From IMG/VR virus record IMGVR_UViG_3300028833_000057, positions 192,001 through 256,000 of that record: DNA of 64,000 nucleotides. The stretch is one strand, 5' to 3'. Below are positions 49,795 through 63,262 of the stretch, one piece after another. The stretch is from a virus (taxonomy: Duplodnaviria; Caudoviricetes). The notes below the pieces were generated by a model, which was not told the origin of the DNA, did no database searches, and saw only the letters and a list, made by a program, of their open reading frames with translations. The position numbers were made by a program, and so were the translations under genes. Position 1 is the stretch's first letter, and each line of letters opens with the position of its first letter.

Positions 49795-49880
49795 GGAAGT
49801 GTGGCCGAGTGGTTTAAGGCTGCTGATTTGAAATCAGCCGTAGCTAATCACTACCGTGGGTTCGAATCCTACCACTTCCT
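49795..49880 (+). tRNA. tRNA-Ser(TGA)
   Basis: GGAAGTG/CACTTCC acceptor, GCTGA-TT-TGA-AA-TCAGC anticodon arm, long variable arm, TTCGAAT T-loop; no encoded CCA. Confidence 0.92.
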
Positions 49881-49963
49881 CTGAAATGAGTATACCTAAA
49901 AGTATACTCATTTTTTTTTAATAAAATAAAGATATAGCTTTAATGCTATATCTTTATTAATTT

Positions 49964-52856: not shown

Positions 52857-53154
52857 TAAAACCTAGTTATCAATTATTAAAGATACGATGAAACTAAATC
52901 CAAATCGAAATCAAAAACCAGATTCCCAGCAAAAGCAAAAGCAATGATAGGAATTTTGGGAATCTGTAAAGTGGCATCGAAAGTTGGGGTCGAACCAACG
53001 TATCTCCAGCTTACAAAGCTAGTGCTCAACCTACTGAGCTATTTCGATAATTGGGGCCAATCACTTAGCCTTACAGTCATTAAAAGTTGTATCTTTAATA
53101 ATCAAATCTAGCTAACGAAGTAGACAAGCTCCAAGCGTTAGCTCCTAGGTTTTA
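52857..53154 (-). ncRNA. putative structured ncRNA with hexamer repeats and embedded tRNA-Thr
   Basis: Perfect inverted repeats 52857-66/53145-54, 52873-86/53089-102, 52919-28/52957-66 and 53110-17/53136-43. Confidence 0.65.
52972..53048 (-). tRNA. tRNA-Thr(TGT), CCA encoded
   Basis: ATCGAAA/TTTCGAT acceptor, CTAGC-TT-TGT-AA-GCTGG anticodon arm, GGTTCGAC T-loop, 3' GCCA. Confidence 0.85.
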
Positions 53155-57284: not shown

Positions 57285-57599
57285 TTATATCTCTATTTGT
57301 GAGCCATATAACCAATGAGATTTAAGAATTATTTTTATAAAATTCCATTTCGCAATAGATATGATATCTTTTCCGGTAATATTTTTACGTGACAATAGAT
57401 TATTCTTGGCAAGTTCTAAATTTTTATAAGCATAATTATCTGGATTTTTAGGTTTTTTATTGTTTATTTCATTTTCTAAATTATTCATAAAACGTTCAGC
57501 AAAAATAAAACATTCGAAGCATGCACCTCCAATGATCTTATCTTTGATATATGACTCTTTAAAGTGATCATAAGATTTTTTATCTTTTAGCAGTAGCAT
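57285..57599 (-). CDS. hypothetical protein
   Basis: 104-aa ORF with GAGGA RBS. Confidence 0.65.
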   Translation of the reverse strand: MLLLKDKKSYDHFKESYIKDKIIGGACFECFIFAERFMNNLENEINNKKPKNPDNYAYKNLELAKNNLLSRKNITGKDIISIAKWNFIKIILKSHWLYGSQIEI

Positions 57600-57830
57600 A
57601 ATATCCTCTTATTTAATTATTATTCTATAATTTAATATAATATGCAGGATAAAAATTTTACAAAAAAAAAAAATCTCTATAGCCTTATATGGACTATAGA
57701 GATATTTTTCAGTGTTATGCTACTTTGCACCATTAGTTTAACAGATTATGACACTTGTATGTTTAGGGAATAATTTTGTGTGATAAGGTCTTATTAAACT
57801 AACTAGTTCGTTAAGCTAGATCTACACTAG

Positions 57831-57902
57831 AGCCTAATGAATGATTCGAACACTCGACATATACATTACAAATGTATCGTTCTACCACTGAACTAATTAG
57901 GC
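57831..57902 (-). tRNA. tRNA-Thr(TGT)
   Basis: GCCTAAT/ATTAGGC acceptor, ATACA-TT-TGT-AA-TGTAT anticodon arm. Confidence 0.88.
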
Positions 57903-58101
57903 GGAACCTTAACATAAGTACTGACTAAATCCACCCCTCGGTGCGATAGAGCCATCGTCATCACTGACTACTTCAAGGCCATTCAACTAATCTATATGAA
58001 ATACAAATTAGTCTGACCACTTATGTTAAGGCATTTAAAAGTTATTGGAGATATATCGGTGTGTGTGGGATTGGATCCTTTTTGAAGATATATCCCCAAT
58101 A

Positions 58102-58174
58102 TTGGAATGGTGGGGTTCGAACCCGCGACCCACGCCTTAAAAGGGCGTTGCTCTACCAACTGAGCTACATTCCA
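58102..58174 (-). tRNA. tRNA-Lys(TTT)
   Basis: TGGAATG/CATTCCA acceptor, ACGCC-CT-TTT-AA-GGCGT anticodon arm. Confidence 0.9.
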
Positions 58175-58181
58175 TAGCATA

Positions 58182-58255
58182 TCGGAATAGCCGGATTCGA
58201 ACCGACGACATCTTGCTCCCAAAGCAAGCGCTCTACCAGACTGAGCTACATTCCG
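58182..58255 (-). tRNA. tRNA-Pro(TGG)
   Basis: CGGAATG/TATTCCG acceptor, CTTGC-TT-TGG-GA-GCAAG anticodon arm. Confidence 0.93.
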
Positions 58256-58350
58256 TAAAGAGCTTAGGGATGGAGGAAACAAACCACCCCTAAGCCTTTT
58301 CACCTTTCAAAAGGATACCCTTTCGGATACCAGAATTTAATATAATGATA

Positions 58351-58608
58351 TTAATTATTCATCAACGCATTCTGAAGAACGTAACCTTCAAGTTCCCAGA
58401 CCTTATTTTCAATGCGTTCTCTACAAATCTGCTCACCAAGATTCTGATCATAATTTGCCGGGTCTACACATGAGCTAGACTCACAGATCACAAATCCATT
58501 CGGAAGAGTACAGCAAACAACTGTAGTCTTTTCACCCATCTTAATGCTTTCAAACTTTGAAGCATCCAAGATCGCCTTAATATCTTCTGGCGTAATTCTA
58601 TTCTTCAT
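58351..58608 (-). CDS. Gp49/Gp66-family phage protein
   Basis: TTVVCCTLPNGF...SSCVDPANYD..LG..IC...VWELEGY; AAGGA RBS before ATG 58608. Confidence 0.85.
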   Translation of the reverse strand: MKNRITPEDIKAILDASKFESIKMGEKTTVVCCTLPNGFVICESSSCVDPANYDQNLGEQICRERIENKVWELEGYVLQNALMNN

Positions 58609-58636
58609 ATAGCATCCTTTGTTGAATGAAAAAAAA

Positions 58637-58842
58637 ATATACCCGTATACGGTGGGAATCGAACCCACATTTCCCATCTATAAGGTGAGATTCGAACTCA
58701 CGTGGCGTTGTTAACGTCTTCACGGTTTCCCCCAAGTCAACAGTTTGCTCAAGTCAACTCTGTGTAAGCATAGTATCAGAACTTACAGGGTAATAGGTTT
58801 GCTTGTATCCGGCCTTGCATACTTTACAGTATAGAGGTATAT
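58637..58842 (-). ncRNA. tRNA-like element with two tandem T-arms
   Basis: GTGAG-TTCGAAT-CTCAC and GTGGG-TTCGATT-CCCAC; ends pair (ATATACC/GGTATAT). Confidence 0.55.
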
Positions 58843-58860
58843 TGTAGAATCTAAAAATAA

Positions 58861-58944
58861 TAGCTAAGGTGAGACTTGAACTCACACGATGTTGCCATCA
58901 AGGGATTTTAAGTCCCCAGTGTCTACCACTTCCACCACTCAGCC
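58861..58944 (-). tRNA. tRNA-Leu(TAA)
   Basis: GGGGA-CT-TAA-AA-TCCCT anticodon arm, long variable arm. Confidence 0.92.
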
Positions 58945-58954
58945 ATGTAAGATA

Positions 58955-59191
58955 TTACTTCTTACCTTTCAATTTTAAATTTGCTTTCTGCCAATCTGAA
59001 ACTGTTTTATATTTCTTTTCTTCACTAGACCAATCAGTGCAAGTAAACTGCCAACCTGGATCTCTATCAATTCTTTCTACACATGCATCACAAAATTTAG
59101 TTGTAAATAATGAACCATCTTTTAAAGATTCAGTTTGTACCCTTTTAGGTTCCTTATCAAAGGGACGACAGCATTTACTGCATATGAACAT
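58955..59191 (-). CDS. small Zn-finger-like protein
   Basis: CSKC...CDAC, located between two tRNAs. Confidence 0.6.
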   Translation of the reverse strand: MFICSKCCRPFDKEPKRVQTESLKDGSLFTTKFCDACVERIDRDPGWQFTCTDWSSEEKKYKTVSDWQKANLKLKGKK

Positions 59192-59195
59192 ATAG

Positions 59196-59277
59196 TACCT
59201 AATGTAAGACTCGAACTTACACTTCTTGCGAAACTTGCTCCTAAGGCAAGCGTGTCTACCAATTCCACCAATTAGGC
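59196..59277 (-). tRNA. tRNA-Leu(TAG)
   Basis: CTTGC-CT-TAG-GA-GCAAG anticodon arm, variable arm. Confidence 0.92.
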
Positions 59278-59286
59278 GGGAAATTA

Positions 59287-59493
59287 TTAAACTCTTACAC
59301 CATGCAATGTATTCATACTACACCCTCAAAAGGGTTCTCTTCAAGCATTAGCAACAGTCTTAAGGGAATTCATAAGGGAAGTTGCATTGATTTCCGATTA
59401 GCATCCTACATGAGATCCTTGCAAGGCATTACGGAATTTTATAGTCCGTCCTGTAGTTTCCTTATGTAATCAGTTCGTAGTATTAGAGTTTAA
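59287..59493 (-). ncRNA. putative ~207-nt multi-stem ncRNA
   Basis: Nested inverted repeats (see findings). Confidence 0.6.
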
Positions 59494-59654
59494 ACACTTC
59501 ACAATCGTACCTAACCTATAATCAAAAGGTTTCATCTGTTTAGAAGTTGCGCTAACTTTATGAGGTAAAAGTATATCCATGTACGGGAACATAGATAAAG
59601 ATGGAGTCAAACCATCTAGCGGATACCATTGTGTAAAACTTATTAAAATCTTAG

Positions 59655-59727
59655 CTGCTTCACATGGACTCGAACCATGGACAAGCGGATTAACAGTCCG
59701 CTGCTCTACCAACTGAGCTATGAAGCA
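59655..59727 (-). tRNA. tRNA-Asn(GTT)
   Basis: TGCTTCA/TGAAGCA acceptor, GCGGA-CT-GTT-AA-TCCGC anticodon arm, G73. Confidence 0.94.
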
Positions 59728-59748
59728 ATTTATAATTTGTTATAAAAA

Positions 59749-59822
59749 TGGACAGACTCGGACTTGAACCGAGAACCCGCAGGTTATGAGTCTGCTGCGC
59801 TAACCAATTGTGCCATCTGTCC
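59749..59822 (-). tRNA. tRNA with CAT anticodon (elongator Met or Ile2)
   Basis: GGACAGA/TCTGTCC acceptor, CT-CAT-AA loop; lacks initiator features. Confidence 0.88.
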
Positions 59823-60172
59823 ATTGTGATTCTCTAGAACGTGGATTTCAGGAAAATCTATGACAAATTTTATCTAGAGAATCACTTTATAAAAATTAGT
59901 GGCTAATTGCTGGAGACACAACCTAGGAAGACTTGCAGAATAACTAGGTCACAACAATTAGCCAGAAATGAAAACTGAGTAGAGTAAAACGCAGGATGTA
60001 AGGGATTACTTTCTTAGTTGAATTCTACTCAGTCCTCTTCACACAACTCTAACGAGCAACATATTTGCAACGTCAAAGGAGGTTCATGGAAAATATTTGA
60101 CGATCTTTCTTCGTCAATACTAAATTATAATCGTTCAGCACATTTTGATTACTACCAGGGCCGTACCAGCTG

Positions 60173-60251
60173 TGGATCAACGGAGATTCGAACTCCGAAC
60201 TTTCTCATGCTTTGCAACTTGAGAGTGCTTTACCAATTAAGCTAAAGACCC
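60173..60251 (-). tRNA. non-canonical tRNA-Ala-like (G3:U70, expanded anticodon loop)
   Basis: GGGTC/GATCC-A acceptor, normal D and T arms, 12-nt loop AGTTGCAAAGCA. Confidence 0.6.
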
Positions 60252-60446
60252 ATGACTTTCTAATCTAGCATATTATAAGAGATGATTAAAGGTACCTACA
60301 TCTCTTATAAAACTTCTAGTAATGCTATAGGGATGCACAGTCTGGCTAAAGGCTATGCATCCCATAGCACCCCTTCTCAACTATGTGAGCGACATATTCG
60401 CAACACAACGGAGTTCTTCAAAATTTAATATATCAATGAAACTATA

Positions 60447-61229
60447 TTAGAATGGAAGATCATCAGCTTCTTCTTCGCTATACTGAGGAGCTGCTGCTTG
60501 CTGCTGAGGAGCAGCATTACCAGAATTAGCCCAAGACTGTGCAGTAGACGCACCTCTACGAGAAGGCGCTCTAGGAGCAGATGTACCACTGGTATTCTGA
60601 CCACCATTATAATTATCGCCACGGTTCGGCTTGTGATCCATAGGAGATACAAGCACACGACACATTTCATTTACAAATTCACAGAATGTGTCAAAAGACG
60701 GATTTTCTACAAAGATAGTTGCTTCTGCATTTGCATCTGTAGAATTGAAACCTTGGAGATTAATATTTTCAAAATAGAAGGAATGTGTATAAGAAATTTC
60801 CTTGCTGTTATTATCTGCCTTACCAACATAGATAATAACACCATCCTTCATATCTTCTTCTTCAGTAGCAGATCCGTCAATCAAACGGAAATGACTACCA
60901 TGGAAAGAGATTTCCATGTCAAGGATTTCTTTAGCCTTATAATGCATAAGAACCTTGCGAAGAACCTGACAATCTTCTGCAGACAATGACATATAGATAG
61001 CATTGTCGTAATCGTATGTTTGTTCACCCTTCTTAGGAGTTCTGCCACGCATGTCATTGAAAACTGCTGCAATAGAGAGGGTAGCATAAGCACGACCGAA
61101 GCCAGCAGTGGCATAGCCAAGCTGCATAGCACCAGTCTTATTATTGAACAAAGTCGTACACTTGGTACGAACATAGTTCGGTTTATCTTGTGTATTGTTA
61201 TTCGAATTCTGCTGATACGAATTAGCCAT
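60447..61229 (-). CDS. putative single-stranded DNA-binding protein
   Basis: Disordered tail ending EEEADDLPF; directly downstream of the DNA polymerase gene. Confidence 0.65.
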   Translation of the reverse strand: MANSYQQNSNNNTQDKPNYVRTKCTTLFNNKTGAMQLGYATAGFGRAYATLSIAAVFNDMRGRTPKKGEQTYDYDNAIYMSLSAEDCQVLRKVLMHYKAKEILDMEISFHGSHFRLIDGSATEEEDMKDGVIIYVGKADNNSKEISYTHSFYFENINLQGFNSTDANAEATIFVENPSFDTFCEFVNEMCRVLVSPMDHKPNRGDNYNGGQNTSGTSAPRAPSRRGASTAQSWANSGNAAPQQQAAAPQYSEEEADDLPF

Positions 61230-61237
61230 ATTTGTCC

Positions 61238-63181
61238 TTAAAGGTTAACGAAAGTTGAAAATTGTTTTGTAGATACGCCAGTAGGTATCATCTGGAAACC
61301 AATACTTTCCATAATTGGATACGCTGCCTTTGTATTATCAGTGACAATTTTATTTATATCTATCAATGGAATAAGTTCTTCAGGTATAACTTTTAACTTT
61401 TTAGGCAAAGCTATAGAATTTATACCAGATTTATAATATTCCGTATCGGATAATGTCCTTACAATCGCTTCATAAAATTCCGGGAATTTATCCTTGATAC
61501 AGTATGCATCCTCTGGTCTGCATATAGGCTTTAAATCCAGAGTATTTAGTTTTGAGTATGGTTGAATCAGATTTTCTGGATGAGCATTATTCCAGAATCT
61601 AACAGCCTTTACAATAGCATTAGAAGTAGGATCCTTATAGACTGATATATTAGAGTATTTACCTGGTTTAATATACTCTGTACTTCTTTCATGTACAAGA
61701 GAATTATAAACTATTTCTTCATACTCTACAAATTTTCTAAGCACAGTCTTAGGATTGATATCCTTCTTCAAAAGAATTTCATTCATAAGTACATCATAGA
61801 AATACTTACGAGTCTTAATATTCGTAGACACTTTCTTAATAGGCAAACCCTTAATTTCATCCTGTAAAGGATCAAGGATATTGCCTTCTTGAACCATTAT
61901 GATGGTAGAATAGTTCTTCTTATTCTTAGTCATAGCAACACGTTTGAATAAGAATTCAGACTTCATGTTAATCCTAGGTTGATACTGCTTACTGACGTTA
62001 AATCCACCAGTAACAGCATTAAGAATATCCTGAATTACATTAGCTACAATATTATTAATAATATGAGCAGATGCAATCTTGTGCATAGGATGATCTAGAT
62101 CTAGTCCATCAAAATTATTTTCAAAGTAATCTACAAATCTACCAAGATAAGTAAATAGCGAGTCAGAGTCTACTAGAAGAATATTCATACGTTTCATATT
62201 CTTCACTATCTGTGCTCTGTTATATCTGATAAATGGATGAGCCACAAAACTTCTAACAAGACCAACTAGTTTCTTTAGAGGTTCGGCAATTTCCTCCGGT
62301 GGTTCATTTGGATTAGTGAAGTTATAAGAATAGCAATTAGATAATATCTCTTGAATCTTTTGCTGAGATAAGAATTCATAAAGATTATTAGTATAATATA
62401 CTCTATTTCTGAATTCTTGATCCATATTCATACATGTAGCAAGAATATCTGGATCATCTTTATCTAATTCATACGATAATTTCTTATTCTTAATATAAGA
62501 ATACAATATCTCACCAGTAATCTTATTTGGATCATCTAGCCATTCACTAATGGTTTCTGGGAACCTTTCTACATAAATCTGACATTCTTCAATGAAACGA
62601 TAGAATGCATCTTTTGTTTCAAATGTAAGATTATTTTCCATTAAGCCTTCAAGGTACATAATACCAGAAGTAATAACAGCATATCCACAATATGTGGTAG
62701 AAGGGCCGATAAATGGATTAGCAAATACATAATTTTCTTCGCCACTAGCACCATATTCAGCATTAGAAATAAGTTTGAAGAGAAGCTGTCTGATTCTATG
62801 AATCATGTATTCACGCTTGTCTGCGTCATTAACATGCTCAAACATCATGGCTTTTTCTTTTTTACGGTTATTCTGCATTGCAATAAGGAATTTAATAAGA
62901 GGCGATTCATTATTGTCATGCTTTTCAAACAGAGTACCATAACCAGTCATGATATATTTATCTTCATACATATCATCTAACACATCAAGCACACGCTTTT
63001 CTGTTACAGTATGCTTATAGTTATTATGTATGACGATTTCTTCATTTACGTCCGGTCTAGATAGCCTTTCTTTAATAATCTGCTGAAGATTTGCTTCTAC
63101 AGATTCAGGCATAGGCTTATTATATCTCGCAAGATATAACTTCCTTGCAGACTCAACGTATGCATTTAGAAATGTACTCAT
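61238..63181 (-). CDS. family B DNA polymerase, C-terminal (fingers/palm/thumb) subunit of a split enzyme
   Basis: KLISNAEYG (motif B), VDSDSLF (motif C), KKNY; GAGGT RBS before ATG 63181; no exonuclease or motif A seen. Confidence 0.85.
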   Translation of the reverse strand: MSTFLNAYVESARKLYLARYNKPMPESVEANLQQIIKERLSRPDVNEEIVIHNNYKHTVTEKRVLDVLDDMYEDKYIMTGYGTLFEKHDNNESPLIKFLIAMQNNRKKEKAMMFEHVNDADKREYMIHRIRQLLFKLISNAEYGASGEENYVFANPFIGPSTTYCGYAVITSGIMYLEGLMENNLTFETKDAFYRFIEECQIYVERFPETISEWLDDPNKITGEILYSYIKNKKLSYELDKDDPDILATCMNMDQEFRNRVYYTNNLYEFLSQQKIQEILSNCYSYNFTNPNEPPEEIAEPLKKLVGLVRSFVAHPFIRYNRAQIVKNMKRMNILLVDSDSLFTYLGRFVDYFENNFDGLDLDHPMHKIASAHIINNIVANVIQDILNAVTGGFNVSKQYQPRINMKSEFLFKRVAMTKNKKNYSTIIMVQEGNILDPLQDEIKGLPIKKVSTNIKTRKYFYDVLMNEILLKKDINPKTVLRKFVEYEEIVYNSLVHERSTEYIKPGKYSNISVYKDPTSNAIVKAVRFWNNAHPENLIQPYSKLNTLDLKPICRPEDAYCIKDKFPEFYEAIVRTLSDTEYYKSGINSIALPKKLKVIPEELIPLIDINKIVTDNTKAAYPIMESIGFQMIPTGVSTKQFSTFVNL

Positions 63182-63262
63182 GTTTACCTCTTGATTCATG
63201 GAAAAGTTAGCAGACAAGAATAATAGGCTTCAAAAGTGTGGTATATTCATGCCGTCTAACAT

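What the first reader, a model, noticed from the sequence alone, without database searches (positions are those of the whole stretch)
59287..59493. ~207-nt multibranched RNA with possible pseudoknot
Seen: nested pairs 59287-95/59485-93 (9 bp), 59315-21/59477-83, 59371-77/59460-66, 59406-10/59452-56 and 59431-35/59445-49, plus hairpins 59322-35 and 59417-26. A crossing ATGCAA (59302-07)/TTGCAT (59382-87) complement could form a pseudoknot. There is no credible ORF, and RNase P and tmRNA signatures are absent. Inference: a novel compact ncRNA, possibly catalytic.
Basis: partly seen in the sequence, partly recalled or inferred. Interest (0 to 1): 0.7.

Follow-up and report, generated by a model that had tools for sequence, protein, structure and literature searches.

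The report
Optional structured RNA in phage tRNA operon
The 207-base fold is real and is conserved in one related rumen jumbo phage, but it is an optional branched insert in the loop of a spacer hairpin of the phage's tRNA operon, next to a better-supported small RNA, and nothing suggests that it is catalytic.

Summary
The window is part of a 268-kb rumen jumbo phage. Bases 59287-59493 lie in a minus-strand tRNA cluster, between tRNA-Asn and tRNA-Leu(UAG). The single-sequence fold (z -3.3 and -2.6) is not exceptional, because 12-18% of random windows of this genome fold as well.

Five related contigs decide the case:
- One lineage (L002) carries the same element at 83% identity, against 64% at neutral sites. 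It has a 40-nt invariant block and four compensatory pairs, and no ORF is conserved.
- Two relatives (L006, L009) and an RNA-library contig have only a 9-bp terminator-like hairpin plus a U-tract at this site.
- L007, a near-twin of L002, has an unrelated 102-nt stem-closed insert there.

The outer stem is therefore a conserved spacer hairpin, and the roughly 190-nt interior is an optional, selectively constrained branched domain. The proposed pseudoknot and one helix fail in the relative. No Rfam family matches. Immediately upstream (59491-59640) lies a structured RNA that is present and covarying in all five sequences compared.

Verdict: a lineage-specific accessory ncRNA domain of unknown function. 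Its transcription and strand are not shown, and there is no sign of catalysis.

The parts
59287..59493 (-). The element as reported: outer 9-bp stem plus a branched interior of about 190 nt. The strand is taken from context (all flanking tRNAs and genes are on -); the fold alone does not resolve it.
59278..59490 (-). The exact segment missing in L006, L009 and one RNA-library contig (27 nt there instead) and replaced by 102 unrelated nt in L007.
   Evidence: (joint 59277->59491)
59485..59493 (-). 5' strand of the outer stem; it pairs with 59287-59295. The pairing is kept through compensatory changes: AAACUCU/AGAGUUU (window), AAACUCC/GGAGUUU (L002), AAACCCU/AGGGUUU (L006, L009). L007 has AAGAUCC/GGAUCUU.
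59287..59295 (-). 3' strand of the outer stem.
59278..59286 (-). U/A-rich tail between the outer stem and tRNA-Leu. It is a cleaner U-tract in the relatives, and the short L006 allele is flagged terminator-like.
59477..59483 (-). 5' strand of the inner closing stem; it pairs with 59315-59321. Invariant in L002, so uninformative.
59464..59471 (-). Two compensatory pairs (C-G to U-A, U-A to C-G) between window and L002.
59365..59395 (-). Hairpin GGAA.UCA / UGA.UUCC. The stem is invariant and the loop carries the changes.
59301..59340 (-). 40-nt run identical in window and L002. It includes hairpin 59322-59335 and the 3' strand of the inner stem.
59296..59311 (-). 3'-terminal small hairpin that needs two U-G pairs, so it can form on the minus strand only. 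One U-G changes to U-A in L002.
59491..59640 (-). Adjacent conserved structured RNA ('RNA-U'), present upstream of tRNA-Leu(UAG) in all five sequences compared. It has a 10-bp closing helix, a junction of hairpins and 5 compensatory pairs, and is single-copy. It matches no Rfam family.
59195..59277 (-). tRNA-Leu(UAG), starting 10 nt after the outer stem.
59654..59727 (-). tRNA-Asn(GUU), upstream neighbour of the spacer.

Best explanation
The segment is an accessory, branched RNA domain nested in the apical loop of a conserved spacer hairpin of a jumbo-phage tRNA operon, read on the minus strand. The operon order is tRNA-Met, tRNA-Asn, a conserved roughly 150-nt structured RNA (RNA-U), then a hairpin with a U-rich tail, then tRNA-Leu(UAG). 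In some relatives that hairpin is a plain 9-bp terminator-like stem-loop. In the window and in L002 its 4-nt loop is replaced by about 190 nt that fold on themselves, so the outer stem can still close. Shown: the fold, its conservation above the neutral rate, compensatory changes in two helices, the absence of a conserved ORF, and the presence, absence and replacement among relatives. Inferred: the domain is co-transcribed with the tRNAs. RNase P cutting at the 5' end of tRNA-Leu would release RNA-U plus the domain as a stable RNA of about 350 nt whose 3' end is protected by the outer stem. The domain would then act through sequence-specific binding of a protein or RNA, not through catalysis. 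A side effect could be weaker termination before tRNA-Leu. It is dispensable, because close relatives lack or replace it.
For: Context: a 267,826-bp virus record with a minus-strand tRNA cluster, and no Rfam family at E<=10. Homologue: L002 (identical to L003, L005, L011) carries it. Constraint: 153 of 184 ungapped interior columns are identical (83%), against 64% at four-fold sites of the neighbouring polymerase, binomial P 8e-9. There is a 40-nt invariant run, and differences fall in 7 of 92 paired columns against 31 of 99 unpaired columns. Structure: the consensus fold is -36.9 kcal/mol against -20.3 +/- 3.8 for column shuffles, with 0 of 300 as good and 4 compensatory pairs. The outer stem is kept with different sequences in the short and long alleles. 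Its short form is flagged terminator-like. Indels of 1-2 nt and the lack of a shared ORF exclude coding. Other spacers of the cluster are likewise made of stem-closed modules with compensatory changes and whole-module indels. RNA-U next to it covaries. Both SNPs seen in an RNA-library contig (59411, 59431) fall in unpaired consensus positions.
Against: Only two independent copies exist, so covariation rests on one comparison, and the consensus was optimised on the same pair. The single-sequence z-score is within this genome's background. The strand is unresolved: the plus-strand consensus is nearly as good (-34.9 kcal/mol, 5 compensatory pairs). The RNA libraries gave only contigs at flat low depth, which cannot show transcription, ends or strand. 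The identity above neutral could partly reflect an old recombinational transfer between lineages instead of selection. The element is dispensable in close relatives.
Confidence: 0.45

Rival explanations
1. It is a DNA-level cassette with no RNA function of its own: a piece shuffled in and out of a recombination hot spot of the tRNA cluster, for example by gene conversion driven by free-standing endonuclease genes. The palindromic ends would matter only as DNA.
For: The site has three states in close relatives, and L002 and L007 differ there completely although their polymerase genes are 98.3% identical. Whole tRNAs, ORFs and hairpin modules come and go around it, and L009 has a PD-(D/E)XK gene in the cluster.
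Against: It is single-copy in the genome and absent elsewhere. The 'empty' site keeps the stem, so the inverted ends are not part of a mobile unit, and no target duplication is seen. The interior is conserved above the neutral rate, with changes concentrated in unpaired positions.
Confidence: 0.17
2. The functional molecule is a plus-strand RNA, antisense to the tRNA operon transcript.
For: The plus strand folds slightly better as a single sequence (z -3.28 against -2.58). Its consensus has 5 compensatory pairs, reached by 0 of 300 shuffles. The change at 59431 keeps first-reader pair 59431/59449 as G-U on plus only.
Against: All tRNAs and genes from 55.5 kb to 63.2 kb are on the minus strand. 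No promoter-like site faces this way next to the element. Three one-sided changes stay paired, and the hairpin 59296-59311 exists at all, only if G-U pairs form on minus.
Confidence: 0.1
3. It is a neutral spacer whose folding is a by-product of the hairpin-rich composition of this genome. Its similarity to L002 would reflect a later transfer, not selection.
For: The genome-wide z background is strongly negative. Only two copies are known, and the element is dispensable in relatives.
Against: The identity is blocky: a 40-nt perfect run beside patches of clustered changes and indels. There are compensatory changes in two helices, and the consensus fold is far better than column shuffles.
Confidence: 0.1
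4. It is a novel self-cleaving or otherwise catalytic RNA.
For: Its size, its branched fold and its 40-nt invariant block are compatible with a ribozyme core.
Against: No hammerhead, twister, pistol, hatchet, HDV-like, group I, group II or RNase P model matches even at E<=10. The proposed pseudoknot is broken in the homologue. Relatives do without it. No observation speaks for cleavage.
Confidence: 0.04
5. It is a small protein-coding gene.
For: There is a 55-aa ATG ORF at 59302-59469 on the + strand.
Against: L002 has 1- and 2-nt indels inside it and no corresponding ORF of 20 aa or more. There is no Pfam or PHROG match, and no minus-strand ORF of 20 aa or more lies inside the element.
Confidence: 0.02

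Closest known systems
Phage T4 stable RNAs 'species 1' and 'species 2' (rnaC, rnaD) of the T4 tRNA gene cluster (from my own knowledge, not checked here)
   Same: A non-tRNA, non-coding, structured RNA of one to two hundred nucleotides, encoded on the same strand inside a phage tRNA cluster, with unknown function.
   Different: No sequence or structure comparison could be made, because no reference sequence was at hand. Here the element is nested in a hairpin loop and is optional among close relatives. Its expression and processing are not shown.
Intrinsic (Rho-independent) terminator or 3'-protective hairpin
   Same: The outer stem plus U-rich tail is homologous to a 9-bp stem, 4-nt loop and U-tract hairpin in L006 and L009, which a consensus scan flags as terminator-like.
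   Different: In the window the loop is 189 nt and branched and the U-tract is interrupted, so the scan does not flag it. tRNA-Leu starts 10 nt downstream, so full termination here would silence it.
Variable expansion domains in hairpins of conserved structured RNAs (for example variable stems of RNase P RNA or tmRNA)
   Same: A conserved core (RNA-U plus the basal stem) carries an apical part of very different length in relatives: a 4-nt loop, an insert of about 100 nt, or about 190 nt.
   Different: The 102-nt insert in L007 and the window's roughly 190-nt interior show no sequence similarity. That looks like replacement, not gradual expansion.
ROOL and GOLLD, large ornate RNAs that often sit next to tRNAs in phages (Rfam families)
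   Same: Rumen phage origin and a position beside tRNA genes.
   Different: Neither Rfam model matches, nor does any other. The whole spacer is only 376 nt, shorter than either family.

Membership tests
Any Rfam 15 family (RNase P, tmRNA, group I/II introns, small self-cleaving ribozymes, ROOL, GOLLD, T-box, YrlA and others) | Covariance-model score at or above the family's gathering threshold | tested here: not met
   No hit in 59278-59653 at gathering thresholds. At E<=10 only noise appears: SNORA21, mir-500 and snoU6-53 at 12-18 bits.
tRNA / tmRNA | Cloverleaf with anticodon loop and T-arm recognised by ARAGORN or the Rfam tRNA model | tested here: not met
   ARAGORN at default settings finds nothing in the spacer. 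A relaxed-threshold 'tRNA-Ser' call at 59568-59641 is not reproduced in L002, L006 or L007.
Intrinsic terminator | Short stem-loop (loop of 3-8 nt) followed directly by a U-tract | tested here: not met
   The window version has a 189-nt interior and a broken U-tract and is not flagged. The homologous short allele in L006 is flagged: 9 bp, loop of 4, T-rich tail.
MITE or other small non-autonomous transposon | Terminal inverted repeats belonging to the insert, a target-site duplication, and several dispersed copies | tested here: not met
   One copy in the 268-kb genome. None elsewhere in the viral, metagenome or genome collections. The sites without the insert keep the inverted repeat.
Self-cleaving ribozyme | Site-specific self-scission | not testable with these tools
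   Only model searches were possible, and no known class matches.
Stable RNAs of phage tRNA clusters (T4 rnaC/rnaD type) | Encoded within the tRNA cluster on the tRNA strand | tested here: inconclusive
   The location is met. The strand is favoured by context and G-U pairs but is not proven.
Stable RNAs of phage tRNA clusters (T4 rnaC/rnaD type) | Accumulates as a discrete RNA processed from the tRNA precursor | not testable with these tools
   Only assembled contigs of RNA libraries were available. They show presence but not ends, strand or level.
Protein-coding gene | An ORF conserved in homologues | tested here: not met
   no Pfam or PHROG match.

The most novel reading that the evidence does not exclude
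RNA-U together with its 3' hairpin is a new class of phage small RNA with an exchangeable apical domain. Related phages plug unrelated structured modules into the same hairpin loop (about 190 nt here, 102 nt in L007, none in L006 and L009). This could retarget the RNA, for example as a decoy against host defence or tRNA-directed nucleases, or tune read-through into tRNA-Leu. The same module-swapping logic would then apply to the other stem-closed spacers of the tRNA cluster.
Probability: 0.12. Interest if true: 0.6.

Novelty: new member of a known kind. Interest (0 to 1): 0.33.

Why it matters
Phage tRNA clusters are now read as counter-defence and translation-tuning islands, yet their spacers are seldom annotated. 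Here the spacers of an uncultured rumen jumbo phage are not filler. They consist of stem-closed RNA modules under selection for pairing, which are gained, lost and swapped between phages whose polymerase genes are 98% identical. The reported element is the largest such module and is constrained in sequence. If it and the neighbouring conserved RNA are expressed, they are new orphan phage ncRNAs with natural knock-out and swap alleles available for comparison. As it stands this is a modest, lineage-restricted finding, not a new ribozyme.

Tried and rejected
- Known RNA families: Rfam at gathering and at E<=10 on three nested ranges, and on the L007 allele, gave nothing.
- tRNA-like reading: relaxed ARAGORN calls (a tRNA-Ser-like call in RNA-U, and intron-containing tRNA-Leu and tRNA-Cys calls in other spacers) were weak and not reproduced in relatives, so they were rejected.
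- Y-RNA idea: the genome has no Ro60/TROVE gene.
- Group I intron idea: rejected by eye because no internal guide sequence pairs with the 5' flank, and there is no Rfam match.
- Promoter idea for the 40-nt invariant block: the block is not repeated elsewhere in the genome, and no sigma-70-like site is flagged there.
- Homology of the L007 insert to the window element: the local alignment score equals the shuffle mean.
- More homologues: exact-pattern scans of viral contigs, metagenome contigs (only a duplicate of L002) and genome contigs found nothing new. GenBank phages matched only the tRNAs.
- Neighbour-gene route: the polymerase pattern search found nothing in viral contigs. Relatives at 54-63% polymerase identity have no tRNA cluster at this place. 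Contigs found through the 78-aa neighbour gene stop short of the site.
- Expression: RNA-library contigs cover the region at flat low depth like the neighbouring genes. This shows neither transcription nor its absence.
- Literature: three full-text searches gave no description of this element.

Full report
**Where it lies**

The window is bases 192001-256000 of a 267,826-bp virus record. Its B-family polymerase at 61238-63217 (minus strand) is about 32% identical to those of the Bacillus jumbo phages AR9 and PBS1. Near-identical DNA occurs in sheep and cattle rumen samples.

The finding sits in a minus-strand tRNA cluster:
- tRNA-Met, 59823-59748
- tRNA-Asn, 59727-59654
- a 376-nt spacer
- tRNA-Leu(UAG), 59277-59195
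- a 78-aa zinc-ribbon-like ORF
- tRNA-Leu(UAA)

The reported element fills the part of the spacer nearest tRNA-Leu.

**Checking the observation**

As a single sequence the segment folds better than its own dinucleotide shuffles, with z -3.28 on the plus strand and -2.58 on the minus strand.

This genome is generally hairpin-rich. I scored 120 random 207-nt windows the same way. Their mean z was -1.22, and 17.5% reached -2.58 and 11.7% reached -3.28. The single-sequence statistic therefore proves little.

No Rfam family matches the spacer, even at E<=10 on a 391-nt search. ARAGORN finds no tRNA or tmRNA there.

**Relatives**

Proteins of the same 90% polymerase cluster led to five usable contigs. 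By polymerase nucleotide identity they form three lineages:
- the window, 85-87% identical to all the others
- L002, L007 and L010, 98-99% identical to each other
- L006 and L009, 97% identical to each other

Four-fold degenerate sites of the polymerase and of the next gene are only 64% identical between the window and L002. That figure is the neutral yardstick used below.

**The site has three states**

- L002 (identical to L003, L005 and L011) carries the same element as the window.
- L006 and L009 have only a 27-nt stretch in place of window 59278-59490. It holds a 9-bp stem, a 4-nt loop and a U-tract, and a consensus scan flags it as terminator-like. A contig from a bovine RNA library shows the same short form, joining 59277 directly to 59491. 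On its own that joint is weak, with a 24-nt side, but it agrees with L006 and L009.
- L007 is 98.3% identical to L002 in the polymerase, yet it has an unrelated 102-nt insert at the same place. The insert folds into a stem closing three hairpins and has no similarity to the window element.

In the window, L002, L006 and L009 the same basal stem is kept with compensatory changes: AAACUCU/AGAGUUU, AAACUCC/GGAGUUU and AAACCCU/AGGGUUU. L007 also closes with a stem, AAGAUCC/GGAUCUU, whose homology to the others is uncertain. A U-rich tail and tRNA-Leu follow in every case.

It is a conserved spacer hairpin, and the roughly 190 nt between its strands are optional.

**Is the interior functional?**

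Window and L002 differ by 1- and 2-nt indels and share no ORF on either strand, so the interior is non-coding.

The interior is conserved above the neutral rate:
- 153 of 184 ungapped columns are identical (83%). Against the 64% yardstick this gives a binomial P of 8e-9.
- There is a 40-nt run without change (59301-59340), beside patches of clustered substitutions.

The structure is also kept. The two-sequence RNAalifold consensus on the minus strand has 55 pairs at -36.9 kcal/mol. Column-shuffled alignments give -20.3 +/- 3.8, and none of 300 is as good. Four pairs are compensatory, a count reached by 3% of shuffles. Differences fall in 7 of 92 paired columns against 31 of 99 unpaired columns.

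Three caveats apply. There are only two independent copies. The consensus was optimised on the same pair that was used to count. An old recombinational transfer could inflate the identity.

**Strand**

The plus-strand consensus is almost as good, at -34.9 kcal/mol with 5 compensatory pairs. The minus strand is favoured for two reasons. Every flanking gene and tRNA is on it. Also, three one-sided changes stay paired, and the hairpin 59296-59311 can form at all, only if G-U pairs form on that strand. This is an inference, not a demonstration.

**Surroundings**

Directly upstream, 59491-59640 (minus strand) is conserved in all five sequences. It always precedes tRNA-Leu(UAG), whichever tRNA lies before it. 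It folds into a 10-bp closing helix around a junction of hairpins. 98.4% of its pair cells are paired, and five pairs are compensatory between the L006/L009 lineage and the rest. It is single-copy in each genome and matches no Rfam family. This 'RNA-U' is the most consistently conserved ncRNA candidate in the spacer.

The other spacers of the cluster are also built from long, often perfect, inverted repeats that close 30-170 nt. Relatives keep several of these stems through compensatory changes while the interiors or whole modules differ. The module at 59895-59969, for example, exists only in the window.

**Interpretation**

The element is best read as an accessory structured RNA domain placed in the loop of the 3' hairpin that follows RNA-U in a polycistronic tRNA transcript. 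Because it closes on itself, the basal stem can still form.

The next steps are inferences. RNase P cutting at tRNA-Leu would leave RNA-U plus the domain as an RNA of about 350 nt ending in a protective stem. Sequence conservation in loops and single strands suggests binding of a partner. Turning a compact terminator-like hairpin into a long-range stem may also weaken termination before tRNA-Leu.

Nothing points to catalysis. The element is dispensable, because a phage 98% identical to L002 carries something else in its place.

**Rivals**

The alternatives are a DNA-level recombination cassette, a plus-strand antisense RNA, a neutral spacer, a ribozyme and a small ORF. They are weighed in the Rival explanations section of this report.

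**Limits**

- No further homologues were found in the viral, metagenome, genome or GenBank phage collections.
- More distant relatives lack the tRNA cluster at this place.
- RNA-library data were available only as contigs, so transcription, ends and strand remain untested.

Noticed in passing
window 59491-59640 (-); model match 59485-59645: A conserved structured RNA ('RNA-U') precedes tRNA-Leu(UAG) in all five sequences compared. It has 38 consensus pairs, 5 of them compensatory, and a hairpin with a T-loop-like loop (UUUGAAU in the relatives, UUUGACU in the window). It is single-copy and matches no Rfam family. It is better supported than the reported element.
   Followed up: yes
window 60173-60251 (-): A tRNA-like gene scores 40.9 bits with the Rfam tRNA model but is not called by ARAGORN. 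It folds as a cloverleaf whose anticodon arm is a closed stem capped by a GCAA loop, with no 7-nt anticodon loop. It is 97-99% identical in relatives whose neutral sites are about 64% identical, so it may be a tRNA mimic.
   Followed up: partly
window 58636-58843 (-): Another stem-closed module of about 208 nt (18-nt arms, 83% complementary) lies between tRNA-Leu(UAA) and the gp49-like gene. It contains two T-arm-like hairpins (GUGAG-UUCGAAU-CUCAC and GUGGG-UUCGAUU-CCCAC) and ends in a hairpin plus a U-run. No tRNA is called, and a relaxed intron-containing call is unconvincing.
   Followed up: partly
window 57600-60500: Nearly every spacer of the tRNA cluster is a long inverted repeat. Examples are 57907-57919/58019-58031 (13 nt, perfect), 58043-58057/58087-58101, 59826-59838/59873-59885 (13 nt, perfect), 59895-59912/59952-59969 and 59974-60001/60006-60033. 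Several keep pairing through compensatory changes in relatives, and the module at 59895-59969 is present only in the window.
   Followed up: partly
L002 10097-10489; L006 9418-9813 and 10059-10622; L007 10085-10486 and 10725-11288; L009 9406-10044: Relatives carry extra genes inside the cluster that the window lacks: a 130-133-aa ORF between tRNA-Leu(UAG) and the 78-aa ORF, a 187-aa ORF, and in L009 a PD-(D/E)XK_5 protein. tRNA content also differs: tRNA-Asn was not called in L006 or L007, tRNA-Lys was called in none of the four relatives scanned, and L009 has tRNA-Ser(GCU). The region is hyperplastic.
   Followed up: no
whole genome (G000): Random 207-nt windows fold markedly better than their dinucleotide shuffles (mean z -1.22, minimum -7.1). 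This suggests unusually pervasive local secondary structure in this phage genome.
   Followed up: no
window 52972-53048 and 57830-57902 (-): There are two tRNA-Thr(UGU) genes in the window. tRNA-Ser(UGA) at 49795-49881 lies on the opposite strand, away from the main cluster.
   Followed up: no
L002 12074-12361, L003 6543-6830, L007 12265-12552: Relatives encode a 95-aa protein with a Pfam Tad4 (PF25186) hit just past the tRNA cluster. The window has a 104-aa ORF in a similar position (57285-57599), and it gave no Pfam or PHROG hit.
   Followed up: no
window 58351-58677 (-): The listed 108-aa ORF of the N4 gp49 / Sf6 gene 66 family probably starts at a later ATG. Relatives mostly have 85-86-aa versions, and the upstream part overlaps the T-arm-like module and a hairpin plus U-run.
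   Followed up: no
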